A program made the position numbers and the translations under genes. From Bilabrum cf. latius (Eukaryota): 64,000 nt of DNA. Location of the stretch: the NCBI GenBank assembly GCA_965178125.1, contig OZ237736.1, positions 1,116,001 through 1,180,000 on the forward strand, given 5' to 3'. Under the pieces are notes generated by a model. It was not told where the DNA came from, did no database searches, and worked only from the letters and a program-made list of their open reading frames with translations. Below are positions 9,552 through 55,730 of this stretch, in pieces (positions within the stretch are counted from its first letter, which is position 1; each line of letters opens with the position of its first letter).

Positions 9552-11393
9552 ATGAGGTCAGCTGTAGGAGTGGCAGCTGCGCTTGTCATGACAGCGGCTT
9601 CTCCGGTTGTGAACACAACGTACGGAGCTGTCCGTGGCGAGACCATCGGTGACGTTGACATTTTCCACAGCATCCCGTTCGCCGCACCACCAGTGCACGA
9701 GCTTCGTTTTAAGGCACCCCAGCCACCAACTCCGTGGACCGGAATCAAGGACGTATCAGCAATGCCCGAAATGTGCCCGTAGCTAAAGCTTGACGGCGAC
9801 TTGTTCTTTGGAAACGAGGACTGTCTGTATCTGCATGTTTACAGGCCCAAAAACGTTGCTCCGGACGAGAAGCTTCCCGTCATGGTGTGGATCTTCGGAG
9901 GCGGCTGGTCGCTGGGCGATGCTAATGAGTTCGGGTGGTACGATGGTACAAACCTGGCTACAAAGCACAATGCCATCATTGTGAGCATGAACTACAGAGT
10001 GGGGCCCCTCGGCTTCATGGCACTGGACGAGCTCGCGCAGGAAGACAGCAGGGGCGCGCTGGGCTCCATGGGCCTGCAGGACCAGAGAGCTGCTATGCAA
10101 TGGGCGAAGGCCAACGTGGCAGCGTTCGGTGGGGACCCGGACTAGATCTCCATTTTCGGTGAGAGCGCCGGCGGCTTCTCCGTGTGCTGGCACCTGGTCT
10201 CGCCCGATTCGAAGGGTCTGTTCCGTGCAGGCATTCTCGAGTCTGGATCCTGCGACTCGCCGCAGTTCTTCCGCCAAAAGCAGGACGCGATCGACTTTGG
10301 GAAGCTGTACGCATCCTCGATCGGGTGCTCTGGGTCAGGCAGCGAGCTGTTGACGTGCCTGCGCTCCTAGAACACAGAGCATATCATGAAGAGCTTGTTG
10401 GATTTCTTCGATCCCAACTGGCCCTTCACCAACAGCAGCGAGGCAGGGGCACGCGCCCTGAACGACGCGCGCTCCACGATGCTCGATTCTGCGGCAGCTC
10501 GCGCGGCTGACCGCCTGACTAGACAGAAAACCGGTGCCCTGAGGGGCGGCAAGGAGGCCCACAATGCTGCCAGGATCCAAGAGGCGCGCGCGGCTCTTGA
10601 CGCCTCTCCTGCCGCCACCATGGCCCTGTCTAGCGCGCTGCAGTTCTTCCCTGCCTTTGCGCCCATCATGGCATGGGGTGCCCCGGTGGACGGCGTGGAT
10701 CTGACCGACCTGCCACTGGGCATGATGGAGAAGGGCCAGACGAACGACGTGCCTGCCATCTTTGGCACCAACAAGGACGAGGCCAACCTGTTCGTCCCTG
10801 CTCTGCCCATCGTGATCAAGGGCGCGCCCCTGCTGCCGACGGCAAAGTCTTTCAACGAGACCATCCGGCACGTCCTCGCGGTGTATGATGCTGCCAAGGT
10901 GGAGGCAGTGCTGCCTACAATCAACAAAGTGTACTCCTCGTCTTCGTTCCATGACGACCAGTGGGATCGTGTGAGCACCGCCTTCACGGACTACTTCTTC
11001 CTGTGCGGAATGCAGAGGAGCGCGCGGGCCTGGTCTAAGGCTGGCAACGATGCCTTCATGTACCGCTTCACGAGAAACCCGGGATGGATTGATACAGACC
11101 TGCTCGGAGACTACCACACCATTGAGCTCGACTTTGTGTGGGATAACGAGTGGCCACCAATCGTGCATCTGTTCGACGACAGCGACAAGCAATTGGCCGA
11201 GCAGATTGGCGAGTTCTGGACATCAATGGCTCGCAAAGGATAGCCGGATGGAGACTTGAACTGGCCCCTATACAACGGAACGGCGTCGTAGATCATGCAG
11301 CTGGATGCCCCCATCAGCTTGCAGCCGAGCCCCCAGCGGCCGCAATGCCAGATGTGGGACAGCGTCATCCAGCAACTGGGGCCTCCGTAGTAA
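9552..11393 (+). CDS. Type-B carboxylesterase/lipase (alpha/beta hydrolase), probably secreted, 613 aa
   Basis: Signal-peptide-like N-terminus; IPFAAPP..LRF; MCP*L; EDCLYLHVY; PVMVWIFGG; NYRVG; FGGDPD*ISIFGESAG (catalytic Ser); GTNKDE; YHTIEL. Ends ...CCG TAG TAA. Confidence 0.92.
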
Positions 11394-11784
11394 GAGGCCA
11401 GGTCGGTGCTGCCACCGGGTTCACTTGATTGTATGCCTCTCGAACGTGTCTCTCAGGGTGTCTAATGCGGCTAGCTGTGGCTCTGCCAGGTTCGCCGCAA
11501 TGCAGTCTGTGCGGCATCACGTGTGGTACAATCTACCTCTTGAGGTTTATGACATTGCATTCAATTGAGATACTTTTGTCCGCGTTTCAGCATAAATCGA
11601 AATCTATATTCGGCACAAACACACGAGCCAAGGCCTCTGGGGCCTCGGCATCACCCACGCGCCCGCAGCGGCGTCAGGGCATAGGTAAACACATCGTTAA
11701 CACATGGGGACACCAACCGGCGATCACCCCAGGGGATTGATTCCCCCGACCTTGAATGTAATAGTTTTGCTCTTTCGAGCTTCT

Positions 11785-14700
11785 TCATCGTTGAGTGTCG
11801 TTGCTGATTGCAACGACTGCCACAGCTTGTGGCCCACTGTGGCTGATCGAGACTGCAATGCTGCTCGCTGCGCCCAGCCTGAGGCCAGCCGATGTTGCAG
11901 CTTCTGCGAACGCACCAGATAGGCGGATTGTGGGCGGGCCTCCGCCTTTAGGTACGGATACTTCCGCGTCTAGCAAGGGAGCACCCGCCCCTGAGGACTG
12001 CACACGACCGGCAGTTGCGCTGCTCACAGCCTTGAACGTAGCCTCCTTGGCAGCCCACCGAGCTGCGAGGCTTGCCGCGGGGTCCGCTGCATGCCTACAA
12101 TACTCGAGCTCGGCTCGCGTGAAGTTTCTCTGCAGCAGGGGAGGCAGTAGCGCAACCTCAGCTCCTGCCGATAGCTCTGCTGCACCCTCAGCAAACGCAG
12201 ACGTCTCCTGCACGTCCACTCCAACCGATACCTTTGAGTCGCCTAAACCAGACGCTGACAGGCGTGCCACTGCATCAGCAGCGCTCTTCTAAGCGACTTG
12301 CGTCGACAGGGACACGTCCTCGCCCGGTCGACCACGCCGCATGTGGGGCCCACGGGATGGCTCCACAGCGAAGGCTCCGCTGACGCCGTCTTGGATGGCC
12401 CTCGCTTCCGGATCCAGGTACACGCTGGGCTCGTCCGACTTGGAGAATGGCGGGTCGGTCTTCACGTTGAGCAGCGGCCGCTTCCCCGTCAGGACGTTTT
12501 GATAGTATCGGTACGCCGCCCTTTCGCGCTCGTCCCTACGAGTCTCGTACTTCTACCGATCGGCATCCGGCAGTGCCGCCAGCAGGATGCTCGGGTGCAC
12601 AAGTACGATCTCGCCACCGGCCTGGCCAAATCCAAAGCTCTTCAGCAGGGCAGCTGGCACCGCCACCCCACCCGCTCTTTCGGCCAACACGAGCGAACGG
12701 TTGGGGTATGCGAGGTGCCAGAATTTCTGCAGCTTCGGTTCGATGTCATCGGCATTGCGATTGCCAGGTACAACCCCAGTGAGCATGGACTGCATCAGGC
12801 CATTGAGCATCCACGCAGCTGCGGAGCCCTTGGGGTGTCCAGTGAGGTATTTCTGGGCCACTACAAGCAGCGGATTGCCAGGTGACCGCCCCAGATGCAT
12901 CATTTGCCGCTGGGTGACCTCGCTCTCGTTCACATCGTTCGCCTTGGTCCCAGTGCCGTGGAAGCTTGCGACGGCAAGGTCATCAATTCCGAGCCCAAAG
13001 ACTCCAAGAGCGCCGCGAATAGGAGCGATTTCCGACCTCCCCTTCCAGAATTCCTGCATCCACCGGCGCTTGGCGGACGCAGCCTTCCTCCCGGCTTCGT
13101 CATCAACGAGTCGCAGCCTCTCCTCACGCCACTGGGTCATCGCACCATTCGAATGGCTTGCTGCACCAGCAGCGCCGCACTCCTCGTTGATTTCACCCGT
13201 CTCCTCGAGTCTCCAAGCCTCAATCTGACGCAGCTCACGGTCTAGCTTTCTCCGACGGTACGCTGGATCTACGTCCATCGCAATCATAGTAACCGGCTGC
13301 GCACTCCGAGACCACGGTGCCATCCCCACTGTGGATGCCCCCTGCGATATGACGCTAGCCGAGTCGGCGTGCTTGCGCTCAAGACTGGCGCGAGACTCGT
13401 CGCCCTCCGACACCTTGCGACCGCTGCCACCCGCTGGGGCCGGTGTGGCCTGCCCACCTGCCCCAGAGGCCGGGAGCGTGGGCGGTGGGACAGCTCGGTG
13501 GCTAGCTGAAGCCGCCCCACTCGGTGCATCTCTTGGAGACATCGTGGGAGAAGGAGGTTCACTACTAGAGACTGCCTGCAACCTTTTCTCCCTGGCGGTG
13601 GTAAGGACTCCCTGCCCGGGGGCTGGCACGGAACGGCCGGCCTTGTCCGAGGCCGTGCTAGTCAAGGCAATCACGCCGTAGATCGGGGCTCCGATATCGA
13701 TGGCAAGCCGCGCCGACATCAGGACCTGCACACCAGAGCCCTGCGACTCCATGAATCCGCCCCGGGTGGTTGTCATCGGCCTCGACATGTCGGCTGGCTC
13801 TCGGCCCTGCTTGGATTCCTTCTCCGCTGAGCTGGTCGCCTTCATTTGCGCGAATTCGTAGGAGCTCTCCTCTGCAAAGTCATCAACGCCACCAGCCACC
13901 ACGACTCGCGCCTTGCCCGACTGGATGGTTTCAACGGCGATGTCTACGCTCGCTGCAGCGGTCGCACATGCTCCGACTGGTGTCTTGATAGGACCAGACG
14001 AGGACAGCAGCAGCATGTTGACCCATGCCGCGACAGTATTGATGAAAGTCTCCTAAAGCACGTCTGCCGGCGCCTCCTCCTCCTCGCGCCTGGTTCTGAA
14101 GATGACGCGCAGGCTCTGAAGCCCACCGACACCGCTCCCGATCGTGTTGCCAACCTCACTCACGTGCACGTAGCGGTAGAGCTCGTAAGGGTCGGTGATA
14201 CCGCTGGAGATGAGCGCATCTGCCGCAGCCACGAGCGTGAACAACGTCACTCGGTCGATCCTTGACGCAAGTTCCGCTGGGACACCGAACCGAGTTGCGT
14301 CCCATCCCGTGGGCACCTGGCCGGCGACCCAACGATCAAACCTGAGCGCGCGCGGAAGGCCAAGTACGGCTCCCTTGCGAAGACGGACCTGCCAAGGTCC
14401 CTCTGGACACTCGGGATCCGACGGTCGAGCGTCGGCCAGCGGGACCTTGTCCTAGTCCTCGCCCGCATCCACGGCGTCGTTCCTGGCCCTCTCCCTGAAC
14501 AGCATGGCCTCCTCTTCGGATGCAACGTCCACCCACGGCATGTCGCGATCCAGGGAAATGAAACGAAGGAACGTGCGGCCAGTCTTGTGCGGTTCAAAGC
14601 CGTCGCAGACGGCGGGTTCGATCAGCCTGCACCCTGCATGGCGCAGCATGTCCTCTTCGAACTTTGCCTTCACCTCCGTGTCGTCGACGGGCATTCCAGT

Positions 14701-17700
14701 CGACGCGTTGACCCAGCCTTGGTAATTAAGCTCTTCTGCCTTCGAGCGCGCGACAGCCGGGGCCAGGGGGCCGTTGTGGTACTTGATCCTTCCAGTGGCC
14801 CACGCCAGCTCGATACAGCCCTCGATCGAGAGCTCGCCAGTTGACTCGATCTCCCACCTCAGCCGAGAGGAACCGAAAGGACCGACCTCGCCAAACCCGG
14901 TGCACACCACAATGGAATCGAGGTCAAGAGAACCGACGATCGGCCGCAGGCCGAATCGGTCCCTAATTGCTAGGACACCAGCCGCCGATGGGAGCGCAGG
15001 GAAATCAACGCCTGATGAATTCGCCCTTGGTGCACCGTGGGATGCCACAGCTCCAGTTGAGCTCACATCTCCCTCCAACGCCCGTCTTGGCGCATCCTTT
15101 GCTGCCATCATGCTTGCCCTGCTCTGTATCGATTTACGCAGGTCTGCCACGAGCTCCTTTAGGTTAGGCACCTTGTCAAACCCACCGGAAAAATCTCCAA
15201 TGATAGGCGATTCGCCGGCGACACGCACCATGGCGGGGTGCATCAGCCCGACGAGCAAAGCGGCCATTTCAGGCGTGCTGAATGTTCGCAGACCTGCCTC
15301 CTCCACCCCCTCTGCGACGATGTCATTCGCGCTCATCAGGCCAGTTCCCCTGGTCCAGCCGATGATGGCACCCGCAACCGAGATGTACTCCTGCCATCCC
15401 TCGGAGCCCCACTTGTTCAGGAGACTCTCCAGGCCGAGTTTGCTCTCAGCGTAGAGGCCATCGCCACCGAACAATCCATGGTTAGGAGACATGGGCAGCA
15501 GCGCAAGGGCGGGTCGCGTGGTCACCCCGCGGGCCTCTTTCGCCTTCTTGACCTCGCCGATCAGCCGCAGCACGTTTGTGAGCATAATGCGATGTGCAAG
15601 CTCACTCCTGTCGTCAATCTTGTCCATGTTGCGCCCGTTCTCACTAATGGCGGCAAAAGGGACCAAGAAATCAACGTCGCCGAGTTTCTCGAACGCGAAG
15701 CGCACGAGGTCCCGCACGTCCTGCTGGGAGCCCTGGTTGAACGGTACAACTGTAAGCGATGAGCCCTTGCTGCCATACCTCTCAAACATCCCGCGGAAGA
15801 GACGCACTGAACCGGCTGAAAAGGAGGACGTAGTGGCGATTATGTTGGCCCCTCCCGCTAGGAGCGCCTTGAGCAGTTCGGCACCAATGGAACCGCGCCC
15901 GCAGCCGGTAACGATGGCACATTTGCCGGCAAAGCTCACACCGTCGGTTGCCATTCCTCGCAGGCAATCAACGAACGACACCGTTGACCGCGCGTGAATT
16001 GGCCGACTTTGCACGCTACCTAGGCGCACTGACACCATAGGCTCCCTGCGAGTAGGTTTGTCCTCCTGGCTAGCAGCGAAATCTTCGCTAATTTCGTTCA
16101 CGAACGAGAGGGCGTTTGCACCAGACTGCCTGGGCTCCAGCTTGACGTTAATTTTTCCAGAACCGTCGATTTCAACTTTTGGAATATCTGGGACTAGGCT
16201 AACTCGCAGGATTGGGGGCAGGTGCAGAGATTCCGAGATCGCATCTGCTGTGCCGGCAGACAGCACGCCTCGAGGGGTCGACACAGTGGCATCGTCTGTG
16301 GGGCTCCACGGACAGCTTCGAGCTACCGCATCCGAGAGAGACTCGGGGCTCTGTTCCAGGTACCTCGCGACGGTCACCAGTTGCTTGGTTGCACGGTTGC
16401 GAAGGCTCTGCATCGCCTCGTCGCTCAGACGCACTGCGCCTGAGTTGTCTTGTGCCACGCTGTTCTTGGCCTCATGGAAGGCTTCAATCAGATCAACGAT
16501 GCACCAGTTCCACCAAGAGCGGTATTCTCTTGCCTTGAGAGCATCGAACTTGGGCTGGATCCCCTGGAGGTATGTCTCTCCATGTTCCTACAGATGCTGG
16601 TCGAGCCTTGACTCGGCCGTCCTGAGCTCGGTGAACGCGCGCTCGAGCCTACGATCCGTTTGCATGTCGTCCTTCTGCAGAAATATCGAAATGGCCTCTG
16701 CCTACTGTTCTAGCATGCCTTGAAGCTGCTGCGATGCGGCGCCTGTCGCACCTCCAGCGCCTGCACCACTACCAAGGGCAGCGATCAAGGCAGCCGCGTT
16801 CATGCCCGCACCAGCCACGCCCGAGCCGCCTCCTCCCCCACCGCCGCCTCCACGCAGAGTCACACCAAATGCAGACTCGGAGCCACTCACCCCATCTTCC
16901 AGCCATTTCTTTGCAGCCGACGCATCGCCAAAACGACCCTTCGGCGCCTGGCATGACGCATACAGCAGCACCTTCTCCACCGACCCCGTCCCGAGGCCCA
17001 GCGACTGCAGGTGACCGCGGGCTGCACTAGCTCCAAAGCCACCAGGCAGCTTCGACGACAAAACACGGCTCACAATCTTGCCTGCAGACTTGCCCGGCGC
17101 TTGGTAGCCAGGACTGGCGGCGGCAGCCGCAGCGGCTAGATCCTGCAGCGGCTTGTCCTCACCGCCCTCCAGAGCCTTGGATGCAGCAGGCCCGAACTCT
17201 GCCTCCAGCTCACCGACGATCTCGTTCTGCAGAGCGGACTGTCCGCCGCAGAGAGCCTTGAGGGTGTCGGATGGCTTGATGTCAGCCAAGGACTTCGCCC
17301 CGGTCTTGACCGCGACGATGGCCCTGATGGCATCGAGCGCAGTGGGAGGGGAGTCAGCGGCAGCGGAACCACCGGCACTTGGACCCCCAGCACCCGATGC
17401 CGCGCCAGATCCCAGGGCAGCCAGCAACGCTGCCAGACCTGCTGCTCCACCGGCACCCGAGCCGCCCCCTCCTCCACCGCCGCCTCCACGCAGAGTCACA
17501 CCGAATGTAGACTCGGAACCACTCACCCCATCTTCCAGCCATTGCTTTGCAGCCGACGCATCGCCAAAACGACCCTTCGGCGCCTGGCATGACGCATACA
17601 GCAGCACCTTCTCCACCGACCCCGTCCCGAGGCCCAGCGACTGCAGGTGACCGCGGGCTGCACTAGCTCCAAAGCCACCAGGCAGCTTCGATGACAAAAC

Positions 17701-20700
17701 ACGGCTCACAATCTTGCCTGCAGACTTGCCCGGCGCTTGGTAGCCAGGACTGGCGGCGGCAGCCGCAGCGGCTAGATCCTGCAGCGGCTTGTCCTCACCG
17801 CCCTCCAGAGCCTTGGATGCAGCAGGCCCGAACTCTGCCTCCAGCTCACCGACGATCTCGTTCTGCAGAGCGGACTGTCCGCCGCAGAGAGCCTTGAGGG
17901 TGTCGGATGGCTTGATGTCAGCCAGGGACTTCGCCCCGGTCTTGACCGCGACGATGGCCCTGATGGCATCGAGAGCAGTGGGAGGGGAGTCAGCGGCAGG
18001 CGGTCCACCAGGTGCTGCAACCGGAGCGTTTGTTGGAGCAGAGACCGGAGGTGCCGGTGGTACCACAACCGGCCGAGCTTGCGATACTGCCGCTACCTTG
18101 CTTTCGCCTTGGGATTCTGTTGATGGTGCTTCCGCCTTCTCAGGCAGGCCGCCAGCTTCAGCCTCCATCGCCGCTTGGGCTGCCTCGGCTGATTCCTTTG
18201 CCGTACTGCCAGCCTGAGGCAAGGAGAAAAAGACCTTGTCCGAGTCTTTGTCAATGTACAGCAGCTCACGGGCACCGTCCCCATACTTTCCAGTCTGCAA
18301 CGTGCGCATAGCCATGCGAGTCAAGGTCACGGCCGGCCCGATCTCAAGCATCCTTTGAACGCCCGAGGTGAAGAAGACGTGTTGCGTGGCGATCCACTGC
18401 ACGGGGCTTGCAAACTGGTACGCCAGTAGCTCAATCACGAGATCTCTAGCAATGCTTGCCCTGTCACTGCGCACAGCTGCAGCGAACTCACCAGGCCCCA
18501 GCGCCACCAGCTACTTGCATCTTTCGCTGCTAGACTTGTCGGCCACAGCTTTGCAGAAATCGAAGGTTGTCTCGAACGGCATTGCTACGAGATTTGGCAC
18601 GTAGTTGTGGTCCAGTCTGCGCAGCACTGCCCTGACCTGGTCCTTGTGAATGCTGCGCTGCAGCACTTTCCTGAATGAGGGCACGCCGCCTAGCAAGAAC
18701 CTAGAGTGGAACGGCACGTCCACACCCGGCAGTGGGATGGTCGCCACGCCTCTCTCGAGGGCAGGGTGCTCCCCAGCCGCGGCAGCTTCCGCAAACACTC
18801 CACGCACCTACGCGATGCAGTTCTTCACGACGGTCGGCGGGTCTTTGGTGGTGCTTGGCTCGGCCTTGAACGTGTTCAACACTGCAGTCAGTACGGCCAG
18901 GGCCTCCAAGTGACCGGTCACCACGTACTGCCAGTCGATCACGTTGTAGTTCACGAGCTGGAGCAGCTATCCTGTCGCAGCTTGGATGCCAGACACGAGC
19001 TGGTGCAGGTGGTCCTCGGAGAACATCGGCGACACCCTCTAAGGGTTGCAAGCCATCATGCCGAAGTCACTCCTCCCAAGCTCGTCACGAGGGACGGCGT
19101 TTTGCATGACCAGCCCACGCAGGAACACCAAGTGGCACAAATCATCAACGTTGAGCACCTTGGTAGCGGCAGACAGGCTTGCATACTCGCCCAGAGAATG
19201 TCCTGCCATGAAGAACCGCTTCGGCACCACGCCCTTGCTCCTTGCGTCCTCGAACGCAGCCTTCTCTAGCAGCACCAGAGCCACCTGGGTGAACTAGGTT
19301 GCGAAGAGCAAGCCGCGAGGATGCATGAACTGGTAGCTCTCGGTGTCTTCTCCGATTGATGGAAGCAGGGGCATCTCCTCGCTCGACCCGCTCGGCTGGA
19401 AGCGCAGCTGCCGGTAATTCTCTCGGATGGCTGCTCCGCGCTTGCCACCAAAGTATATCCTCAGCTCTTTCGGATTCTCTCGGACGATCTTGAGGATGCT
19501 GAAGCCAAACTTCTGTTGAAGCACGCGCTCCGCATGGTCCCACGTTTTCCTCGCGGCTTCCGACCTGTCGTAGAGATCCATGCCCATGCCAGGGGCTGCG
19601 TAACCTTGGCCCGTAAACACGATGGCGGTGCGAGGCTGCACAATTTGTGCCGTTCCTTTCAGTACTAGCCTTGCTGAACGGGAGCTGCTCGCCGCGTACG
19701 CCTCGACCTGCACCACTTTGGCGCCGCCGCTCATCGCTACGTGGGACAGCTGCGTGGTCACTTGCTCTCCAGGCAGCACCATGCCCACAAAGTCGGCCTC
19801 GAAGGATCGAAGGAGCTTGGGGTTGCCCTTTAGCAACTTGTGCACGACCACTTTGAGGCAGTTTCCGTAGGTCCACATGCCGTGGGTGATAGGACCAGGC
19901 AGCTGCGCTAGCACAGCAAACCCCCTGTTGCGGTGGATGGGGTTCAGGTCCTGGCTCGCCAACGCATACTCAGTGTTGTCCAATGGTGCTTGGGCCACAT
20001 CTGGCTCTGCCAGCAGTGTGTACCCAGATGAAAGTGGCTACTGCTCAGGGTGCTTCGTCGCGACACTTGACAGGAAGCTGTCAAGTGATGCCAGCTGTTC
20101 GGAAGACTCTGCCCTCACGGACCCGACTAGCCGAAGTTCTGAAGCATCTGGCAGCTACCCCTCTGATTCTAGCGCGGATTGTTCATCAAATTTGCAATCG
20201 TCGCTGGCTTGCAGCGCCTCGGGAGGGCTGGGTAGTAGACCGGTGTCAATCTCACAGTGACCGATCGAAGGGATCTCCCTGGCACTGCCGCACACAGTCA
20301 TCGCGGGCGAGCCATCAGATCCGACCGACCTTGCCGTCCACAGACGCAGCAAGATTACCGAGCCTGCCTGAAGCTCTTGCTCTGCTCCACCGGCGCCGCT
20401 TGACGCAGCCAGCTGCAGCCACGGCATGGAACGCAACCTGCCCACGTCGCGGTCAGTTGACAGCTTCACCGTGTATTGCTCGGCCTTCCGCTCGTAAAAG
20501 ACGCCGTGCTTCTGGCTCGCGGCCGTGGCGTGCTTGGCGGAGGTATCCCGAACGAGGAACTTGGACGTCATTCGAACCCAAGGAGTCTCATCGTCCTTTG
20601 ACAGCACCCCTTCGACTTGGATCAGCAAGCCCCGCACATCTCTGATCATGCGAGTAAGAGCTAGGCGAGAGCAGACTAGATCGCCTTCAACCACTTCGGC

Positions 20701-23700
20701 TACATCTGATGGCTCATCAAAGCAGGATTCTACTTTGTGCGAGAGATGGACGAGGTCCATGAGATTTCCATTGACGTGCTTGGCGAGCAGCGGGGCCACA
20801 AGAGCGCCCCATGATGCCACAATGGAGAATCCAACAGGCACTCGCAGTTTTGCCCTACCAGTGCCGTCAGATGGCGCCTCTCCCGATCTGGGAGACACGG
20901 CGCCTAGCCTCGGTGACGGTGGCAGGCCGGTCGTGCTGTCTTCAACGGAAAACACTGGCATGCGAATCGCTGCCGCGTACTGCTCGATCTTGGACCTCGT
21001 GACTTCAAAGCTGTGCACGTGAGTCTCGACTGCAGGGATCACTGCGCCGGCTGCCTCGTCAGCGACAACTGAGCGGCCGCCCGACGATGCGCCCAGGTCA
21101 GATCCCTCCTCGTCATCACCCCAAAGACGCGAGTAGAACTGCCGGACGCGCTCGTGCATGGAAGAAATCTTGACCCCATCCGCTCCTGGTGCTACGCCAC
21201 CCTCGGGCAGCTGCAGCAGGACGCACGATGCTCGTGCAGGATCAAAGTAGAAGTACAGGTCCAGGTTCGTCAGTTGCTCTCCGACCCGATCGAATATCTG
21301 CACAATGATCGTAGACGCTCCCGGGGAGAGATCGAGGGCAGCACGAGCCCCGTCCACGACGCCTTCCTGGTATCGCATCGAGACGATCACCTCGGAACCG
21401 CCCCCATCGCGTCCTTTATTGGCGCCTTCGAGCACATCGAGCCCGACAACGGCGGAGCCCCCTGCGGAAGCAGCCCCACCTGCTTGCGCGGTGACAGCGA
21501 CCACCTTGAGGTCGTCATATTTGGCGAACAGGTGTGGCAGCAGGTTTCGTTTCCACGTCGTCCCGCTGGCGATGTCGGTCGAGGCCAGTGCAGCCACAAT
21601 CCATGCTGGCGGCTTCCGCGTTCCAACTGCATGGCAAGCGCCGCGTGCGGCAAGAAGGGCCTTCGACCGAAGGTTCCAGTCTGGGCCGAGGAGCGCGGCT
21701 TCCTCAGGGTCCTCCGGTGAGGCATCTAGAGCCGCACCAGCGACTCGACCAGGCAGCAGCTCCGTCAAAGTGTCCGTGATGGGGACGTTCTCGGCGTTCC
21801 CCTCATACTGCTGCATCAGCAACGTCTTAGCGACTCCATCATGAATTCCCCCGAGAATGTCTGCGGCTGGCTCCTCCTTGTTCGAGTAACCGACCGACAC
21901 AGGTCCCTGCAAGATACAGACCCTTCCTGCATCTCGGCCAGGGACCGCCGCCAGGTCCTCGGAGTACCACAGCGAGTCCTTCTTGAAGTAGAACTGCAGC
22001 GAGTCGCCATCGATGCACGGTACAAAAGGGACCGGTTTCCCTCCGGAGCGACACATGCTGTAGAAGTAGTCCACGTCGTCCCCAGTGAGCAAGTGACTCT
22101 ACGAGCGCGGAATGGCACTTGCAACATGCTCCACAACTTGGTGAGGCGACATGGATATATCCTTGTCCATTCGGTCTGATTGGAGCTGCCTCAGAAGTTC
22201 GGCCGCGTCGCTCTCGTTCGTCCCCGCAGGTGCCGCTGCAGAACTTGACCCCAGCCCCAGAGACGAGATTGGACCAGCAGCAGCGGCTGCCTACCGCACA
22301 GGACCACCTTGAGCGGAAGCCTCGCCGGCGAGTCGCTCTGCAGTACGGAGCAGCAGCTTCTTGAATCGAATTTTGTACGTCGGATCCAGCCAGCGCCCTG
22401 ACTCGGTCGAGTCCTCATGGGGAGCGTCCGGGTGCTCGGCGTCGGGTAGCACAAAGCACAGACTGACGAACCGCTGAAGAACTTCGTGGTAGGTCATTTC
22501 CTCGACGTCGCACACGCTGCCATCTTCATGCCGTCCAAAGTACACCTTCTGGAAGTCGTTATTTAGACGCCCAATGATCTCCTGCTTGGCAGCCTGGACC
22601 GCGGGCCCGCGCTCAGCGGGTGGAAGGGAGAAGAAGCGACGATCCATCTCCCGCCACAGCATCATGCCACGGTTCGCAATCTTGTGAATCGGTTCCCCCA
22701 GCTCCGATCGCACCGTGAGCACTCCGCCGGCAACGCCATCATAGCTCTGCTCCCATTGCTTCTCGTCAGAGCGTCTGACACCCGGGGTGTCCACGAGCAG
22801 TTTCTTGACTTCGGGCGCAGTGGCTGCCTCCGCGGCGACCATCATGCGCGAGCCCAGCAGAACCGCGTCGAAGGGCATCTTGGCTGCAAAGTAGGGGCTC
22901 TTCATGCTCCACTCCCCGGTGATGTACGGTAGCGCACTCTCAGCGTCACCGATCCCAGAGCCGGCCACAAGAACGAGGTTCGGGCAGGCGCGCATCTCTC
23001 CGTAGGTGGCCATCAGCGGCTGGTGCATGTCTTCGAACGAGTGATGACCGCCGGCTCGGCCCCCAGTCCACTGCAGGACGACTGGCATATAAGGGCAGGC
23101 CTTGGCAATCTCAAGCGTGCGTCGAATGGCCTGCAGGCTGCCAGGCTTGAATGCCACGAAGCGCAACCCGGCTTGCGCGCAAGCGGCCAGTATCTCCTTG
23201 GCCTTTCCCGCAGTTGGAACGCCGGCACCAATCGTCATGCCATCAATGGGCCAACCGGCCTTACGCAGCTCCAGCATGAGGGGGAACTGGAAGGCCCACT
23301 GCCTCGGGTTCAGGTACAGCAGGTTCAGGCCGATGGCGTCCCCTGGACGCAGTGCATCGATGGCCTTCTGCATCCTCGCCTTGAAAATGCCCGGGCGAGG
23401 GAGACCTCCGGCTGCCAGCTCTGCGTGATAGCCTGCAACCGTGCTGGCCGCGACGAGCTGCGTGCCGTAGAACGACGTGCATGGTGTCATGCCCGCAACC
23501 ATCACCGGGGGTCGACCCAGCAGGTCAGTGTACCTTGTCCGCACGAAAATCTTTCCGTCAGAAGAGCGGCGCACGAGGGTTGGAGAATGGTCGCGGGCCC
23601 AGCAGCAGGCGCGGAGCACTCGTTTGCACGCTGGTACCTGCTCGTGGCACACCATGTCTCCCACCGTGGGGAACACCTCGAGCGGATTCGCGCTGTTTAA

Positions 23701-35381: not shown

Positions 35382-36506
35382 ATGGAGGAACTGGCTAGTA
35401 TCGTAGCGCGGGCGCTCATTTTGATTTCACAAGCAGTAGCAGCAGGCCAGCTGTGCACAGCGTCGGGAAAGAGGCTGCGCAAGAGTTTGCTAATGAACCC
35501 AAGCAGGTTCAGCGATCGATTCAATCTCCTCTAGGGACGTGTGATCAAACCTGAACAGTTGCGGGGGCTATTGGCATAGCTATATCATGATATTTGCGAC
35601 ATGAGCCCTGCGGGAGCTGGTTGTGCCGGCCGATGCGATCAGGTGTGTTCAGCCGGCGAAGCAGCAGAGGCCTCAATTCTGTCGAGCAGCATCCGAAGGC
35701 GGACCAGCGTGCCTCTGCTGGGCCACCAAGATCAATCATTAAGAGTTGCACGTGTCACTGGATCAGGAATCCAAGTACTCAGAGCAGGCAGCAGTACGCC
35801 GGAGGCGGATATTCACAGAATCAAGGTTTCGAAGGATGGCTCTCTTTTTTGCTTGTATCATCGGAAGTCTTTGGCCGAGGAAGTAACGCTGCTACCCTCA
35901 GACAGCAGTCCGGTATCTCATCTCGCCGCGATCGTGGGCTGCCACTCGAGCAGGACGGCTGCTTCGTACCTCAAGCAAAGCACAGGGATGCTTGCGTCCG
36001 TCAGTGCCAATGCCAGTGCTGCTGCCAGTGCCGATGGTCGGGACTCGCGTGGCGCTTTGTCCGACTGGAGACTGTATCCCGAGGCTGTTGCATGCGGACA
36101 GATGCTAGTGTACTGCTTGTGCACCCGTTTACTGCGTTTGGTGGAGGCAGACAGATAGCCGCAGCCAGCACTGCCTACTGCTGCGTCGTGTGGCGGGCAT
36201 GTCAAGTCCGACAAATATGCCACTGGCAGCGGGCCCCACAGCACGGAGGATGCAGACCCTTTGGATGAACCCATTGCATCGCGCATGCCAACAGGGCGGC
36301 CTGCTCAGGCGGCTGAGGGTGGTCCGACCCGGAGTCCGGCGGTCGTAGCGCGGGTTCTTGTTGACACGATCGAGGCGCTTCGAGGGAGGCGGCGCGTGCG
36401 GAGTGCCTGGCAGGAAGCGGAGTCTGGCATACTTAGTTCGCCCGTGGGCGGCGTGTTGCTGTTGGAGGGGCTGATTGGCATTGCTATCGATGGTGTGGGG
36501 TTGTAA
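35382..36506 (+). CDS. Hypothetical protein, 374 aa
   Basis: Three track ORFs (35253, 35601, 36261) share one frame separated only by TAGs. ATG 35382 to TAA 36504-36506 fills the gap between Asterix and PTEN. No recognised motif. Confidence 0.55.
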
Positions 36507-39647: not shown

Positions 39648-41645
39648 TGCAAGGCGGCGATCGAGCTTGTTGAAGAAGGCTTATAGGTTGGCGGGTAGAC
39701 GTGGGGTGTGAAGATGCCATAGCGCAGCAAGCGCGGTACTGGTGCATCCGGTGGGGCGCAGGCAGTCTTCCACAGCGATGCGGATAGACAGACACCACGC
39801 GGCTCTAAGGGGCTGTCGCCTGCCGCCAGGATCGCAGGTGCGGAACAAAAGAGACTGCATCGAACGATCAGGCTAACGGCCAAACGCTCGGTGCATCCGC
39901 CGGGAAGCCCGCAGCATCGGGCGGAGGCGCAGCTCTGCGCGTTGGCTTGGATCATTGCGCTTGTGAGACACAGGGTGCGCAGCGAGACGGGATTCACGAC
40001 ATGCGCGGGAGTTGGCACGAGCCGCATGGCCGCCAAGCTGGCGGCGGGTCTTCGCAAGCCGAACCGCCAAAGCGTGGTACTGCCTTCTGCGGTAGTACCG
40101 ATGATACACCCGCTGAAGGTAGGGTCTCTGCCAGGCATTGGGCACTCCACGGCGGCCCTGTTGCAGTCAGCTGGGATAGAGAAAGTCAGCGATGTTGTGT
40201 CTCGTCTATTGGGCATGAGGGCAGGCGCGACCGGATCGAGCGCAGGGAGATGCGGCCTGTTTGACCCCAGCGACCGCTCCAGCCTGGCCGCCGCATGCAA
40301 GGCGCTTCGCCTTGGAGAGAGCACTTTCGCGCAAAGACAGGCTGTGCTTCTCAGTCAATTGTGTTGCGGGCAAGACAACTCGAAGGTGGTCCCAATGGAG
40401 CCTCCAAAGCAGCTGTCCGACGAAGACTCCTTCAGGCGCATCGATAGCACCGAGGCGCTGCTTGCTAAAACCAGGCAGCTGTGTACCGGCGTCCTGTCTC
40501 GCCTCATGCAAGACGGTCGCACCCCAATGCTCCTGCGGCTACAGGTCTTGCGAAACGGACGAAATCGAGTGTCAAGGTCAGTTCGAGTGCCAACGAAGGC
40601 ACTGGCGTGCTTACAGGTATCAGCGTCGAGCAATTCTGGATCTATTGACGCGATGGCCGCAGGGACGCATGAACCCGTGCCGTCGGTACCCGGTCCATTC
40701 GGGTTTATTCCACCGGTAGCCCCAGTACCTGGGCGCGCACCGCCATGGGCCACCGGAAGCAAAGCGGTGCCTCCAAGGGAGAGCGTGGATGCTCTGGCAA
40801 AGGGCTGCTGGGTGCTGCTGTGCCAGCTGGTCCCCGAGGTGGCGAGGCGAAATCTATCCTTCGAGCGAGCGCACCAGGTGCTGAGTGCTGGTGCATCGGC
40901 AAAAAAGGAGGCTCTAATTGAGCCGCCAATCATAGTGTTAAACGTCGGACTTACAGAATTCAAGCGCGAACCCGGGCATCGCGAGGACAGCAGCCCCGAT
41001 GAAGAAGGCGCATCGCCGGGCAAGAAGCGGCGCAGGATGAACCCCATGGAGGAATGGATCTCTAAGCGACACCAGGAAGGTGCTGAAGGGCGTCTTATGA
41101 CGAGTGAAGCGGCTGGAGGAGAAGCTTAGGTCCTTGGTGCCAGTGAATGCACGAGTCGCGTTCATGATGCAGCGCGAGCAAGCGGTAGGTAGTAGCGACA
41201 TCAGCATGCTAGCACCCTGCATGGAAGGAAGGGCCACTCCGGCGACGGATCGGCGCAAGAGGCTGCAGTGGTAGACGTCTCCTCCGGCAGCGACTCGGAT
41301 ATCGAAGACGTCACCGCAACAAAGCGCAAATTAGTGGCGACTGGCTCCGCAGGCTCGTCGTCAGCACCGCCTGCATCGTCTGCGGTCCAATCCAGTGCCA
41401 GGAAAAGCGGCCTGGCGGTGCCAGCAGCCGGGAGCACTCCAAGTGCCGCCATGGCTCTCATGGCGAGCGCTCGGGCTGTCGATGCGGCAGAGCGACGACG
41501 ATCTGCCGCGCTGGGGAAAATGAAGACAAGCAAGGGACTGGGCAGGGCAGGGCGTGCTGCGACTCACTGCGGCAGTCGTCAAAAGAAGGCTGGCAAGACA
41601 GCGGGGCTCGGGGGCTTCCTCTAGAAAGAAACAGTCGGGCGGTAA
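38859..41645 (+). CDS. POLI: Y-family translesion DNA polymerase, Pol iota-like, ~928 aa
   Basis: DLDCFYAQ, VTQK..TTNYAARELGV, GEDL, IGLDEFF, TGFTTCAGVG..AKLA..KPNRQ, LPGIG. One frame through several TAGs to TAA 41643-41645. Confidence 0.82.
39594..39647 (+). repeat. (AGC)18 microsatellite encoding poly-Ser within the Pol iota-like gene
   Basis: Perfect trinucleotide run preceded by AGT, giving 19 consecutive Ser. Confidence 0.95.
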
Positions 41646-48000: not shown

Positions 48001-49535
48001 TCAACAGGCACCCGATCTCCCTGAAGAGCCTAGCACCCGCTCTGATTCGGTTCTACCAGGACGCCGAGTCGAGCGGGTCGCACACTTAGTTCTACGACAG
48101 GTTCCGGATGCGAATGTCGGTGGCGAATATCCTCGGATTCGCTCTCCGGTACCACCCGCACAGGGAGGCCCTCACCGATTTCGCAAAGATGTCGTCGTCG
48201 GCGTCGGCGTCTACGTTCAAGCGATTTGCGTCGCACATTTTGAATGATGTCAATCACCACTTCAACGAGATCGAAGAGAACCTGAAGAAGGCATCCGAGT
48301 TGCTAGTCACCAGGGCAGCCGGCATGTGGGAAGCAGCCGACCGAGCAAGCAACACCAAGAGCCTGAAGCAAGCGCTGGGTGTCGCGAAGCATTGGGCGTT
48401 TCACATGCAGCACCAGCTGTTCCTGCTTGCTGACGTATGCGAGTGTGCCCCGCTGGTATTTGGAGCTGGTGACATGGCACCCCGCCTGGCCTAGACCATG
48501 CAGCAGGTGCTGAAGATGCTACATGGCCCTGATAGGGACGTATGCACCACCGCAGAGCCGGGTAGTAAGCCGGCGTTGAACGTGACGTTCACTAGCTTCT
48601 TGTGCGCGCGGTGCATGGCAGCTGTGCATAGGGCCACAGAGGGCATCGATCCGTTCGAGTCGGCCTCTTCGTCGTCGAGTGCTGCACCAAGCGGTGCTGC
48701 TGCCGCTGCTGCTGCTGGTGACGATGATCAACGAGACGATGATGCTATGGGGCCCTCGAGCGGCGCTGGGGGAGATGACGAGGAACAGATGTACACGGCC
48801 GTATCTGCGACCAGCTTTGCAGGGGCGATGGCCCGAGACGACAGGTACTACTCACACGACGTGCTGATGCGTTGCTCGGAGGCTCTGTCCAAGCCGGGCA
48901 CTGCTGCGGCCTGCAAGGGCTACACGACGGACTTTGCCGCTTCGTAGCTGCAGAAACTCGCTGCGCGTGTGTAGGAGGTGCGAGAGCAGGTTGATGATGA
49001 GGAGGGCGACGATGACGATGACGACATTCCTGACGAGTACGAGTGCGAGATGATGTGCAGCCTCATGCAAGACCCCGTCCGTCTGCCCGGTGGGGTTATC
49101 GTAGACCGCTCAAGTATCGAGAGGCACCTTTTGGACTCTGATATGAACCCATACACGCGTGAACCCCTCACCATTTAGGACGTGGAGCCGTTGCCGGAGC
49201 TGAAGGCGGAAATCGAGGCGTACAGGAAGGAGAGGAGGAGGGCGAGGAAGGCGGCGAGGGTGGCGGCGGCGCTCGCTCCCAAGGATGGGGTTTAGGAAGG
49301 GGGGGACAAGTAGGGGCAGGGAGGTGGGGAAGACAGCGGTGGGGCCAGCGGCGCTGCAGCCAGTGACAATAGTGCTACTAGTATCGCTCCGGCTCCAGTT
49401 GACCCCGTCCCTGCTGCCGCTCCAGCAGGTGGTCAGCCCGGCTAGAGCGACGAGCAGGGGATAGCAGCTGAGGTGGCCGATGACGACGCAGAGCTCATGG
49501 AAGCTATCCGCAATAGCTTGGAGCACGACACTTAA
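45003..49535 (+). CDS. UBE4B: UFD2/UBE4 ubiquitin E3/E4 ligase with U-box and C-terminal UIM, ~1510 aa
   Basis: WIADVLNAN..R, FFFLALRALHLG, LPEHIVQDV, GSHT*FYDRF, ILNDVN; U-box IPDEYECEMMCSLMQDPV..DRSSIERHL..NPYTREPL. One frame from ATG 45003 to TAA 49533-49535. Confidence 0.9.
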
Positions 49536-52647: not shown

Positions 52648-53339
52648 CTGCGAAAGGAAACCCAACGGTGAAACTAGACGCGTAGTTAAATGATCATCTT
52701 GCACATGTTAAACCAGCTATGGACTGTTCACGCATTATTTTAAGCATTTGAGGTCAGAATCGCAGGTTCTACGCGTCGAGAACGAGCGAACCAGCCGTCT
52801 ACCCCAACAGAATTTCGGCTTGGTTGGTCCTTCCTGACGGATCCAACGCGACAGCGTATCGAATTTTGCAGTATTTTCATGGATGTGTCATACTTGCTAT
52901 CGCCAACCGGTGGAGGAGCGGTATCTTGGCGAGCAGAAGGCAGGCGACAGAATTCCGCAGCAGCCTAGGCTAGGGCATGAATGGAGGGGCCATCGGGTGC
53001 ATGGAACTCAACCCACTGTCAACAAGGAATCAATTGGTTTGCCTCACTTCGGCCATAATTTTAGTTTGATGTGCGGCTTGTAAAGTGATGAAGAGTCAAT
53101 GAGATCCGTTCCGGTTCACTGGAGGCATTTTCTTTACCGGTCCTCGATCGGAGCACAGACTCGCAAATGGCCGCGCAGTTCTACCGTGGTCGCCGGCTGC
53201 AAGTGGTACGAAACAGGTTCATCCGTTCCATGTGCCACTGCATTGCGTCCATTCTTTTTGGTTCAGCTCACCTCTTTGCTGGATATCCATCGAACACCAC
53301 AGCGAGCGCTACCAGCTAGCCGCCAGAAATTCGCCTTTC

Positions 53340-55730
53340 TTACCCATCCTCGTCACCTCCTGCACCACCAAGGGAGCCTTCTACCAAGCCGGCATCAGGT
53401 CGGGCAGGCGAGCGTTCGATTGCCTCTGCAGGCTGGCCCGCACCGTCACTCGGTGGCTCAAGGGCGAAGGGCAGCACGCCGTCGGTGGCCTCGAACAGAA
53501 TACCGCGGCCGGCGGCATGCGCGTCGGGCCGGCCAGTCCGCGCGATGAAGTTGCCCTGCTTCTCAGCGAGCTGCTCACAAAGCAAGAATGGTGTCCACGC
53601 GGTCTCGCCTTCTGGAAGCTCCAGGCCATACAACGTCTCGAGGGGAAGACGCTCAGCGAGGTATCGCACTGCAGTGTAGGGCTCCCGAACCTGCGCGAGC
53701 GGGACGATCCCCGACACTTCCTGCAGTGCCCTCTCCGTCTCCATCTGCACCTTGACGGCCTCGGATGGAGGCGGCGGCACTCGGACAGGCACAGCACCGC
53801 TCGCACTGTCCTTTGCACCGGCACCTGCCCCAGAGGCAGGAGCCCCCCTTCCTCCTTTTTCTGGGGCCTTTGCAGACGAATGTATTGCACTAATACTCCG
53901 TGATGATTGATCGATACTCGTGGCGTCATCATCCTCTTCCGGGCCCGCTTGGGTCCCGGCAGGGGCTGCTCCAGGCTTGCTCGCCTCCGCCACATCCACA
54001 CGTGTCGCAGCTGTCGCAGCTGCGTCAGCACCGCAGGCAGCCTCCTTAGGGGCAGCGCCCGATTCGCTGACAACGATGGCATCGCTATCGCTATATGCGT
54101 GGGGGAAGAGCATGCCCGGACAGTCGAGGATCTTGAGGCCATCCACCAGCTCGATCGTCTGGGCTCGTTTCGTGTGGCCAGCCGTGCGAGAGACAGACAC
54201 TCGCTTGGCGCCCGCGAGCGTGTTCACGATGCTGCTCTTGCCCTGATTTGGTTCTCCAATCATGCCTAACACAACGGTGTCGGCTGCCGGTATCCCATGC
54301 GACGTTCTACCGCTGGCTGCCGCATCACTGCATGCACCAGCGCCCGAGGCCTCCCCTGATGGGCCTGGAGCATCCCCTGATGCACCAGGGTCAGCACCGG
54401 CCTCCCGCTCATCTTCATCGGAATCAGAGCACGTCCCCTAAGACTGCCCCCTGTCTCTCTCGCTGGGCCCCCCACCTTTCGTCTTCCCTTTCCTCTTTCC
54501 CTTTCCCTTGCGCCTTCTGCCCTTGCCTTTGCGACGGCGCCTGCCCCCATTATCGCTTGAATCGCTGTCAAAAACCGGCAGAGATGACCTGACACCACTG
54601 TCCGCAGTATTTGCAATCTCTGCAGCCGCAGAGGAGGGAAGTGGCGAGGTGGAGTGGCCCACGCCAGGTAGGTCAAAGGCGCCAGCTTCCGGATCCAGAT
54701 GGCCGTCCAGAGCCCGTTGCAGATCCCTGGCTTCCTAGACGGCATGCTTGCCATACTTTTCCATAAGCATGGCTCGCTTAGCAGAAGTTCCACTCGCCCT
54801 GGAGCCCGCAGCGCCCCGCCCGCCTCCGCGAGCACTCATGACGAGCTGCTCGGCCGCCTCGAGCACTTGCTCGCTGCTCACCTCGGCGGCTTGCAGGAGC
54901 TCCTTGCAACAGTTCCAGCGCGCGGCCAAGTGAAATTCAGAATACGATTTCCTGGCATCGTCAATGTGTCGCCTGCGCGCTGCGAGGCCGGCCTTTTCAG
55001 AAACCCTCTTGCCTGCAGAGCTGAATTGGACCACCCCGCTGGCCTTGGGATACCGGAGTTGCATGTACCGAGACCATCTTGCGGCTAGACACTCTGAAAT
55101 GAGGTCTACCTTTGTCAAGACTATCACGAACGGCTTGCGAAGCGTCTCTGTGACGTATTCGTACAATCTTTCGGAGATGTGCAAATGAGGATGCCTGCAG
55201 TCCACGACCATGCAGATGGCGGTGCTGTGCTCCAGGACGTGGCGCAGCTGAGACCACACCTACGGATTGTGCTCGAACGCGTTGAGCTGCTCCGGGCGAT
55301 ACCTTGAGTACACCCTGTCGATGTATGTTTTGAACACGTCAGCACCGTCTTCAGCTAGCCCCAGCGCCGACTTCGCCATGCCGCCGGACACACGCGCGGT
55401 AGCAGGCATGTCTAACTCGGTTGATGAAAAAGCTTCGAATCGATGCGATTCTATTCTTGGCCCTCTGTAGATGGGCAGGTTGGCCCGCCTCTTTCTTAGA
55501 GCGACCGCCTCGTCTGATTCTCGGACTACCACAGTCGACCAGCGATTTTCGACCCCCGATTTGCCCAAGCTTGTTCTTAATGCTACATCCTGTCCTCCGA
55601 GGGATGCATGCGGCAGTTTCCGTCCGTCATGTTGCGGATCGTCCGACGCCGCCGCCTTCCTAGCTCGTTTCTGCTTCAAATACTCCTTTTTGGCCTTCCC
55701 AGAGAATGGTTTCCGCCTTGTCTGAGGCAT
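53340..55730 (-). CDS. GNL1: GNL1 (HSR1/MMR1-type circularly permuted GTPase), 796 aa
   Basis: N-terminal RRKPFSGKAKK; FEHNP*VWSQLRHVLE; G4 TKVD; G1 GEPNQGKSS; G2 GHTK; G3 DCPG; GRPDAHAAG. TAA stop at 53340-53342. Confidence 0.88.

What the first reader, a model, noticed from the sequence alone, without database searches (positions are those of the whole stretch)
11388..53342. UAA stays a stop while UAG is sense: the two UAR codons are uncoupled
Seen: no in-frame TAA inside any reconstructed exon, although CAA codons are common. Six genes end at TAA: carboxylesterase 11391, orphan 36504, PTEN 36612, Pol iota-like 41643, UFD2 49533 (right after a complete UIM) and GNL1 53340. The other 16 end at TGA. 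Established: UAA and UAG are nearly always reassigned together in eukaryotes (ciliate code, diplomonads, some ulvophytes). Split meanings are known from only a few lineages, such as Iotanema spirale (UAG=Gln), an uncultured rhizarian (UAG=Leu) and some ciliates. Inference: this may be an independent origin. It would need an eRF1 that accepts UAA/UGA but rejects UAG, plus a CUA-only suppressor tRNA.
Basis: partly seen in the sequence, partly recalled or inferred. Interest (0 to 1): 0.88.

Follow-up and report, generated by a model that had tools for sequence, protein, structure and literature searches.

The report
UAG means glutamine, UAA still stops
In this GC-rich protist genome piece the codon TAG sits inside genes where glutamine belongs, while TAA and TGA still end genes: a rare split of the two UAR codons known from only a few unrelated lineages.

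Summary
I find 22 ORF-level genes: 6 end at TAA at the stated coordinates and 16 at TGA. In 21 ORFs (18,689 codons) frame 0 holds 105 TAG, 0 TAA and 0 TGA. The other two frames hold 121 TAA. From the CAA:CAG ratio about 40 in-frame TAA would be expected (P 2e-15).

TAG is glutamine. It falls on columns that are Q in 60/60, 50/60 and 42/60 FAS homologues and in 75/85 carboxylesterases. A 97%-identical fragment has Q at both TAG sites it spans.

Two metagenome contigs of a diverged relative (L001, L040) also carry in-frame TAG. There TAG pairs with CAG or CAA in 5 of 11 aligned codons. Orthologue ends swap TAA and TGA within 3-6 codons.

If only TGA stopped, all six TAA would lie in the last 0.7-7.5% of their frames (combined p 6e-5).

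The code has the same content as translation table 15 (Iotanema, some ciliates). The host looks like a stramenopile near Cafeteria, for which I found no report. No tRNA or eRF1 gene lies in the window, so the mechanism is inferred. This is a new member of a known kind.

The parts
11388..11393 (+). TAG TAA at the end of the carboxylesterase gene (ORF 9510-11393). TAA is the stop; the TAG just before it is either the last Gln or the real stop.
   Evidence: Searches show the letters. In one search the C-ends of 85 homologues cluster at query residues 606-617; TAG and TAA are residues 614 and 615.
36504..36506 (+). TAA stop of the orphan gene (ORF 35109-36506, 3 in-frame TAG)
   Evidence: It lies 105 nt from the converging PTEN stop. 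No Pfam family.
36612..36614 (-). TAA stop of the PTEN-like gene (ORF 36612-38684, no TAG)
   Evidence: The L001 orthologue ends at TGA about 6 codons away in the alignment.
41643..41645 (+). TAA stop of the Y-family polymerase gene (ORF 38841-41645, IMS domain, 8 TAG)
   Evidence: The frame beyond it would run 39 codons into the converging gene at 41740.
49533..49535 (+). TAA stop of the UFD2/U-box gene (ORF 44955-49535, 11 TAG)
   Evidence: The 82 codons beyond it have no Pfam match.
53340..53342 (-). TAA stop of the GNL1-like GTPase gene (ORF 53340-55781, 3 TAG)
11785..25149 (-). Fused fungal-type fatty acid synthase: one 4454-codon frame with 16 in-frame TAG, 0 TAA, ending at TGA
   Evidence: TAG columns are Q in 60/60, 50/60, 42/60 and 27/60 homologues.
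19294..19296 (-). TAG at FAS residue 1952, a column with Q in 60 of 60 homologues
14053..14055 (-). TAG at FAS residue 3699, a ketosynthase column with Q in 50 of 60 homologues
9780..9782 (+). TAG in the carboxylesterase, a column with Q in 75 of 85 homologues
33980..34429 (+). Erv1/Alr last exon with TAG TAG at 34292-34297, ending at TGA. Used for the comparison with L001.
34627..35067 (-). Asterix (PAT complex) gene with 3 TAG, ending at TGA. Its L001 orthologue ends at TAA 3 codons later.
31147..32154 (+). UPRTase gene, the 22nd gene: 2 TAG, TGA directly after the end of the Pfam domain

Best explanation
The window comes from a GC-rich (about 0.60), intron-poor, flagellated eukaryote, probably a stramenopile near the bicosoecids. 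Its nuclear code reads UAG as glutamine and keeps UAA and UGA as the only terminators. This has the content of translation table 15.

Shown here:
- TAG stands in frame at glutamine positions, and it is present unchanged in transcript-like contigs.
- TAA is never in frame and lies at gene ends.
- A diverged relative shares both features.

Inferred, not seen:
- A tRNA-Gln with anticodon CUA decodes UAG. It is most simply a mutated copy of tRNA-Gln(CUG). It cannot pair with UAA.
- An eRF1 still recognises UAA and UGA but has lost, or loses the competition for, UAG.

TAG supplies about 15% of glutamine codons (105 of 711). It is commonest in weakly constrained, low-GC3 genes. This fits new TAG codons arising from CAG by C-to-T change.
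For: 1) Open frames. Reading TAG opens a 4454-codon FAS frame and raises the summed length of ORFs of 300 aa or more from 11,333 to 27,912 aa. Reading TAA instead adds almost nothing (11,702).

2) TAG is Gln.
- FAS: of its 16 TAG columns, the commonest residue among 60 homologues is Q in five: 60/60, 50/60, 42/60, 27/60 and 17/60. I used the first 60 of the 120 homologues listed.
- Carboxylesterase: Q in 75/85 homologues at one TAG. I used 85 of 150 hits, those 500-720 aa long.
- P0124, 97% identical over 233 aa, has Q at both TAG sites it spans.

3) Relative.
- L001 (PTEN 73% identical over 706 aligned columns) holds 10 in-frame TAG and 0 TAA in 1,247 codons.
- L040 holds 9 TAG in a GNT-I gene and 0 TAA.
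- Of 11 aligned codon pairs with TAG on at least one side, the partner is CAG in 4, CAA in 1, CAC in 1, TAG in 2, and AAG/GGG/GGA in 3.

4) TAA is a stop.
- Frame counts in 18,689 codons are TAA 0/56/65 against TAG 105/154/128; P = 2e-15.
- In TGA-to-TGA frames the six TAA lie in the last 0.7-7.5% of the frame. The Fisher combined p is 6e-5.
- Sequence after TAA has GC1/2/3 of 0.58/0.52/0.54. That matches sequence after TGA (0.57/0.49/0.57), not the coding sequence upstream (0.72/0.59/0.66).
- Asterix ends at TGA in the window and at TAA in L001, 3 codons apart. PTEN ends at TAA in the window and at TGA in L001, about 6 codons apart.
- Mismatch by codon position is 0.25/0.24/0.57 and 0.22/0.12/0.56 in the two coding stretches. 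Between the stops it is 0.55/0.57/0.55.

5) No editing or assembly artefact.
- Runs X1-X3 hold contigs that join across a 103-nt and a 400-nt CT..AC segment. On the minus strand that is GT..AG. Run X4 does not show these joints.
- Of the 35 in-frame TAG in 35001-55000, 26 lie in listed X1 pieces that show no differing letter.
Against: - The sample is 22 genes plus two short relative contigs. A rare sense use of TAA elsewhere in the genome cannot be excluded.
- No polyA-anchored 3' end, peptide or ribosome footprint was available.
- Two of the six TAA say little on their own. The carboxylesterase ends TAG TAA. The PTEN TAA is followed by TGA only 3 codons later.
- TAG is denser in the last 40 codons of ORFs (13.1 against 5.3 per 1000, p 0.0076). 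Against Gln codons this is not significant (p 0.15). A residual stop role of TAG near 3' ends is therefore not excluded.
- L001 alone is weak: P(0 TAA among 10 TAR) = 0.09.
- Runs X1-X3 are not on record as RNA. Their transcript nature is inferred from the joints.
- No tRNA gene and no eRF1 gene were seen, so the mechanism is untested.
Confidence: 0.85

Rival explanations
1. This is the ordinary ciliate-type code (table 6). Both TAA and TAG mean Gln, and TAA is simply rare because the genome is GC-rich. The six genes would really end at the next TGA.
For: The genome is GC-rich and TAA is the rarest of the three triplets (392 against 968 TAG and 1,625 TGA on both strands). The frames stay open for 3-82 codons after each TAA.
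Against: A-ending codons are not rare: the CAA share of Gln codons is 0.276. About 40 in-frame TAA are expected and 0 are seen. All six TAA lie in the last 0.7-7.5% of the TGA-delimited frames (p 6e-5). Composition after TAA is non-coding. The tested extensions have no Pfam match. TAA and TGA swap at orthologous ends.
Confidence: 0.04
2. The code is context-dependent. TAG is Gln inside genes but still terminates near some 3' ends, as in Condylostoma or Blastocrithidia-type codes. Some ORF tails would then be 3' UTR. TAA and TGA are stops as well.
For: TAG is enriched in the last 40 codons (11 in 840 codons against 94 in 17,849; p 0.0076). The carboxylesterase has TAG exactly where homologues end. 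In 7 of the 21 ORFs the last TAG lies within 35 codons of the end.
Against: Gln codons are enriched in tails too, and TAG against Gln codons gives p 0.15. In Asterix and Erv1 the protein stays conserved between the window and L001 downstream of TAG codons that lie 22-44 codons from the end. No gene needs TAG as its stop.
Confidence: 0.08
3. The in-frame TAG are artefacts: pseudogenes, sequencing errors, or codons corrected to CAG by RNA editing.
For: None specific. It is the default doubt for a single assembly.
Against: There are 105 TAG across 18 of 21 ORFs, and no TGA or TAA in frame. The same letters stand in contigs of four runs from three studies. Of the 35 TAG in the laid stretch, 26 lie in spliced-run contigs without a difference. 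An independent relative shows the same pattern.
Confidence: 0.01

Closest known systems
Iotanema spirale (Fornicata) nuclear code: UAG = Gln, UAA/UGA stop (PMC5304391, passages read)
   Same: The codon meanings are the same. UAG is read as Gln, UAA is kept as a stop, and no convincing in-frame UAA was found. A tRNA-Gln(CUA) is predicted there too.
   Different: It is an unrelated anaerobic metamonad, and UAA is described there as the dominant stop. Here TGA dominates (16 of 22), the genome is GC-rich, and the host looks like a stramenopile.
Ciliates with UAG-only = Gln: Protocruzia tuzeti, Hartmannula sinica, Trochilia petrani (PMC11687900, passages read). The paper handles them with translation table 15.
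   Same: UAG = Gln with UAA and UGA as stops. UAG is spread along genes like a Gln codon.
   Different: They are ciliates, and 93.5-100% of their C-terminal alignments end at UAA. Here TAA ends 6 of 22 genes.
Rhizarian exLh and TARA phyllopharyngean MAGs: UAG = Leu
   Same: UAG is uncoupled from UAA, and only UAA and UGA are used as stops (56 and 15 in the rhizarian).
   Different: The amino acid differs. The conserved TAG columns here are Gln.
Ciliate/diplomonad/ulvophyte code (table 6): UAA and UAG = Gln
   Same: UAG = Gln.
   Different: TAA is not a sense codon here.

Membership tests
UAG-only = Gln nuclear code (content of translation table 15) | In-frame UAG at conserved glutamine positions | tested here: met
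   FAS columns are Q in 60/60, 50/60 and 42/60 homologues. The carboxylesterase column is Q in 75/85. P0124 has Q at 2 of 2 TAG sites. TAG pairs with CAG/CAA in 5 of 11 orthologous codon pairs.
UAG-only = Gln nuclear code (content of translation table 15) | UAA absent from coding frames and used as a terminator | tested here: met
   0 in-frame TAA in 18,689 codons, against 121 out of frame. Six genes end at TAA. The position test gives p 6e-5. TAA and TGA swap at orthologous ends. The sample is only this window plus L001 and L040.
UAG-only = Gln nuclear code (content of translation table 15) | UGA is a terminator and never sense | tested here: met
   0 in-frame TGA. 16 of 22 genes end at TGA.
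UAG-only = Gln nuclear code (content of translation table 15) | UAG no longer used as a terminator | tested here: inconclusive
   No gene requires it. Protein conservation continues past late TAG codons in Asterix and Erv1. However, the carboxylesterase ends TAG TAA and TAG is denser in ORF tails.
UAG-only = Gln nuclear code (content of translation table 15) | tRNA-Gln(CUA) present and tRNA(UUA) absent | not testable with these tools
   No tRNA gene in the window or in L001, L002, L006. No Rfam match in the window. No genome is held.
UAG-only = Gln nuclear code (content of translation table 15) | eRF1 N-domain compatible with UAA/UGA-only recognition | not testable with these tools
   No eRF1 family among the Pfam results for the window's ORFs. 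No genome is held.
Ciliate-type code (table 6, UAR = Gln) | UAA used in frame at Gln positions | tested here: not met
   0 in-frame TAA where about 40 would be expected.
Context-dependent stop/sense codes (Condylostoma, Blastocrithidia type) | The same codon is both sense and terminator, depending on position | tested here: inconclusive
   For TAA: never internal. For TAG: tail enrichment has p 0.0076 against all codons but 0.15 against Gln codons.

The most novel reading that the evidence does not exclude
This would be the first stramenopile clade with UAG captured for glutamine while UAA and UGA still terminate. The FAS gene places it beside Cafeteria. It would be an origin independent of fornicates and ciliates.

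It arose, or persists, in a GC-rich genome where UGA, not UAA, is the main stop. That is the opposite of the UAA-dominated hosts of the other known cases.

The trait is old enough to be shared by members whose synonymous sites are saturated (the window organism against L001/L040).
Probability: 0.55. Interest if true: 0.72.

Novelty: new member of a known kind. Interest (0 to 1): 0.62.

Why it matters
Cases where UAG and UAA have different meanings are the natural experiments on two questions: why the two codons are normally coupled, and how eRF1 can tell them apart.

A GC-rich, TGA-terminating, apparently free-standing lineage would add an independent replicate with a very different base composition. 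It appears in public DNA runs and in transcript-like runs from three studies. It would test whether the usual story of AT pressure and rare UAG is needed.

There is also a practical point. Standard-code gene callers shred this genome. Summed ORFs of 300 aa or more fall from 27,912 to 11,333 aa, and the database fragment P0124 looks like such a piece. Annotation should therefore use a UAG = Gln table.

Tried and rejected
- Whole genome: none is held. Genome-wide counts, a tRNA scan and an eRF1 check were therefore impossible.
- Sequencing runs: no RNA holder listed.
- I do not use depth or missing cover as evidence for transcript ends.
- I also do not use the ends of single contigs. X1 35387-36578 stops 72 nt after the orphan TAA. 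X1 39660-41641 stops 2 nt before the polymerase TAA. Contigs cannot show RNA ends, and no polyA-like loose end was listed.
- tRNA and Rfam scans of the window found nothing. L001, L002 and L006 hold no tRNA.
- The UIM at the UFD2 C-terminus was not found by Pfam at E up to 10. The frames beyond the UFD2 and polymerase TAA gave no family either.
- Pfam on antisense or alternative long frames gave nothing, including one frame that spans a TAA at 42796. I dropped them as non-genes.
- More relatives:
  - Genome-contig scans with GNL1 and with PTEN found none.
  - A viral-contig scan with Erv1 found none.
  - Of the 31 metagenome loci of 2.4 kb or more that I screened, only L001 and L040 clearly gain long frames when TAG is read. 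L002 looks standard. Very GC-rich loci were uninformative.
- The homologue searches with IFT144 (6 hits) and UFD2 (3 hits) were too thin for placement or for C-terminal comparison.
- A codon log-odds script crashed. I replaced it with the GC-by-position comparison.
- Literature: five full-text searches found no paper reporting a UAG = Gln nuclear code in a stramenopile. Supplements were not seen and subscription journals are not covered.
Full report
**What the window is**

The window has a GC fraction of about 0.60. With the standard stops it holds only broken frames. Reading TAG as sense opens very long frames: 4454, 1537, 1526, 1364 and 1236 codons. Reading TAA as sense changes almost nothing. 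Summed ORFs of 300 aa or more are 11,333 aa (standard), 27,912 (TAG sense) and 11,702 (TAA sense).

Pfam identifies ordinary eukaryotic genes in these frames:
- XPG, a protein kinase, TFIIH Tfb2, a carboxylesterase
- a fused fungal-type fatty acid synthase, a Tub-domain protein, UPRTase
- an EF-hand protein, Erv1/Alr, Asterix, PTEN
- a Y-family polymerase, a GOST/TMEM87-like membrane protein, UFD2 with U-box
- an LRR protein, a GNL1-like GTPase, a pyridoxal decarboxylase, DUF4336, IFT144/WDR19

Genes are tightly packed. Converging stops lie 58-391 nt apart. Some introns exist: the kinase, Tfb2, Erv1 and IFT144 domains are split over frames.

**The observation**

I count 22 ORF-level genes.
- Sixteen end at TGA.

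In 21 ORFs (18,689 codons) the counts by frame are:
- TAA 0 / 56 / 65
- TAG 105 / 154 / 128
- TGA 0 / 306 / 376

In frame there are 167 CAA and 439 CAG. If TAA and TAG were both glutamine with that A:G ratio, about 40 TAA would accompany the 105 TAG; P(none) is 2e-15. In stretches covered by Pfam matches (9,262 codons, limits typed approximately) there are 37 TAG and 0 TAA.

ORFs delimited by TAA cannot contain TAA, so I also used frames delimited by TGA only. In those frames the six TAA lie in the last 0.7-7.5% of the frame. The Fisher combined p is 6e-5. The other real genes that have a TAA in such frames (EF-hand, LRR, decarboxylase, DUF4336) have it only in the first 7-61 codons, upstream of the recognisable protein.

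**TAG is glutamine**

I aligned FAS with the first 60 of the 120 listed homologues. Of the 16 TAG columns, five have Q as the commonest residue: 60/60, 50/60, 42/60, 27/60 and 17/60. The others are gaps or variable columns, and none is conserved for another residue.

In the carboxylesterase one TAG column is Q in 75 of 85 homologues. I used 85 of 150 hits, those 500-720 aa long.

P0124 is a database fragment 97% identical over 233 residues. It has Q at both TAG sites that it spans.

**A relative shares the code**

A scan of metagenome contigs with PTEN gave 54 loci.

L001 (5.4 kb, GC 0.53) carries four orthologues: PTEN (73% identical over 706 aligned columns), the EF-hand protein, Erv1 and Asterix. 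It has 10 in-frame TAG and no TAA in 1,247 codons.

L040 carries a GNT-I gene with 9 in-frame TAG and a PTEN paralogue. Both end at TGA.

Among 11 aligned codon pairs with TAG on at least one side, the partner is:
- CAG in 4
- CAA in 1
- CAC in 1
- TAG in 2
- AAG, GGG or GGA in 3, mostly in poorly conserved stretches

Third codon positions differ at 0.56-0.57 between the two organisms. The relative is therefore well diverged, and the code change predates their split.

**TAA is a stop**

Besides the counts above:
- The 216 codons that follow the six TAA up to the next TGA have GC1/2/3 of 0.58/0.52/0.54. This matches the 1,522 codons after TGA stops (0.57/0.49/0.57). It does not match the last 60 codons upstream of the stops (0.72/0.59/0.66).
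- Asterix ends at TGA in the window and at TAA in L001, 3 codons apart. PTEN ends at TAA in the window and at TGA in L001, about 6 codons apart.
- Between the Erv1 and Asterix stops the two sequences no longer align with any codon periodicity: 0.55/0.57/0.55, against 0.25/0.24/0.57 and 0.22/0.12/0.56 in the coding parts.
- Carboxylesterase homologues end at query residues 606-617. TAG and TAA are residues 614 and 615.

**The TAG codons are real**

Four public runs from three studies hold the stretch.

Three of them (X1-X3) are not on record as RNA. They contain contigs that join across a 103-nt and a 400-nt segment bounded by CT..AC, which is GT..AG on the minus strand. The fourth run (X4), with even cover, shows no such joint.

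Of the 35 in-frame TAG between 35001 and 55000, 26 lie inside listed X1 pieces that have no differing letter. Editing of TAG to CAG, or assembly error, is therefore unlikely.

**What stays open**

TAG is denser in the last 40 codons of ORFs (13.1 against 5.3 per 1000, p 0.0076). Glutamine codons are denser there too, so against them the excess is not significant (p 0.15). One gene ends TAG TAA. A residual terminator role of TAG near 3' ends cannot be ruled out. Against it, Asterix and Erv1 stay conserved downstream of late TAG codons.

The mechanism is inferred from the passages of PMC5304391 that I read: a tRNA-Gln(CUA), and an eRF1 that spares UAG. The window has no tRNA gene and no eRF1 gene among the families found. 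No genome is held.

**Who it is**

In a FastTree of FAS with 60 homologues, the query is sister to a clade of Cafeteria and two unnamed proteins. Local support is 100, and the best identity is 50% over 3,440 columns. The tool warned of composition bias, and FAS is patchily distributed: Diphylleia, Cyanophora, a diplonemid, fungi and oomycetes also have it.

The best named IFT144 hit is a pelagophyte at 38%.

I therefore call the organism 'probably a stramenopile near bicosoecids', and I hold this placement tentatively.

**Comparison with what is known**

From passages of PMC11687900 and PMC5304391:
- UAG-only reassignment to Gln is reported for Iotanema spirale, Protocruzia tuzeti and two phyllopharyngean ciliate lineages.
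- UAG = Leu is reported for a rhizarian and for TARA ciliate MAGs.
- UAG = Ser is reported for Scotinosphaera.

The present code has the same content as the Gln cases, which PMC11687900 handles with translation table 15. It differs in host lineage and in stop usage. TGA ends 16 of 22 genes here. In those ciliates UAA ends 93.5-100% of aligned C-termini, and in the rhizarian 56 of 71.

Five full-text searches found no report of such a nuclear code in a stramenopile. Supplements and subscription journals were not seen.

**Verdict**

This is a new member of a known kind of variant code, probably an independent origin.

Noticed in passing
window 11785-25149 (-): The fatty acid synthase is a single beta-alpha fused polypeptide of 4454 codons. 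It has two almost identical tandem ACP units (two Fas_alpha_ACP stretches; the repeat is visible in the printed translation). Its nearest relatives are Cafeteria and unnamed metagenome proteins.
   Followed up: partly
window 34698-34709 (-) and L001 2219-2656 (-): In Asterix two TAG codons three codons apart (SSYV-TAG-A-S/T-TAG) are conserved as TAG in both the window and L001, although synonymous sites between the two are near saturation. This could be chance or a constraint on these particular codons.
   Followed up: no
window, last 40 codons of the 21 ORFs: TAG is 2.5 times denser in ORF tails than in ORF bodies (11 in 840 codons against 94 in 17,849). In 7 of 21 ORFs the last TAG is within 35 codons of the stop.
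   Followed up: partly
window 59140-59148 (-): The TGA that closes the IFT144 frame is followed directly by GTAAGT, which looks like a splice donor. The true last exon may lie further on, though only 112 nt separate it from the converging DUF4336 stop.
   Followed up: no
window 51676-52260: The LRR_6 gene has a close paralogue elsewhere. Contigs of X2, X3 and X4 match this stretch with about 20 differing letters, and depth is raised there.
   Followed up: no
window 52648-53047 and 44490-44592: Two minus-strand GT..AG introns (400 and 103 nt) are supported by joined contigs in three runs. The first exon of the LRR gene lies within about 300 nt of the GNL1 stop.
   Followed up: partly
window 2862-2921, 36506-36612, 41645-41740, 59033-59146: Converging gene pairs have only 58-112 nt between their stop codons, so the 3' UTRs must be very short or must overlap.
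   Followed up: no
L001 versus window 32412-38684: The gene order EF-hand / Erv1 / Asterix is conserved. In L001 PTEN follows Asterix directly and in the opposite orientation, and the window's orphan gene (35109-36506) has no counterpart there.
   Followed up: partly
window, per-gene TAG counts: TAG density falls as GC3 rises. PTEN, LRR and the EF-hand gene have none and IFT144 has 3 in 1364 codons. XPG has 13 in 953 and the kinase 12 in 1236.
   Followed up: no
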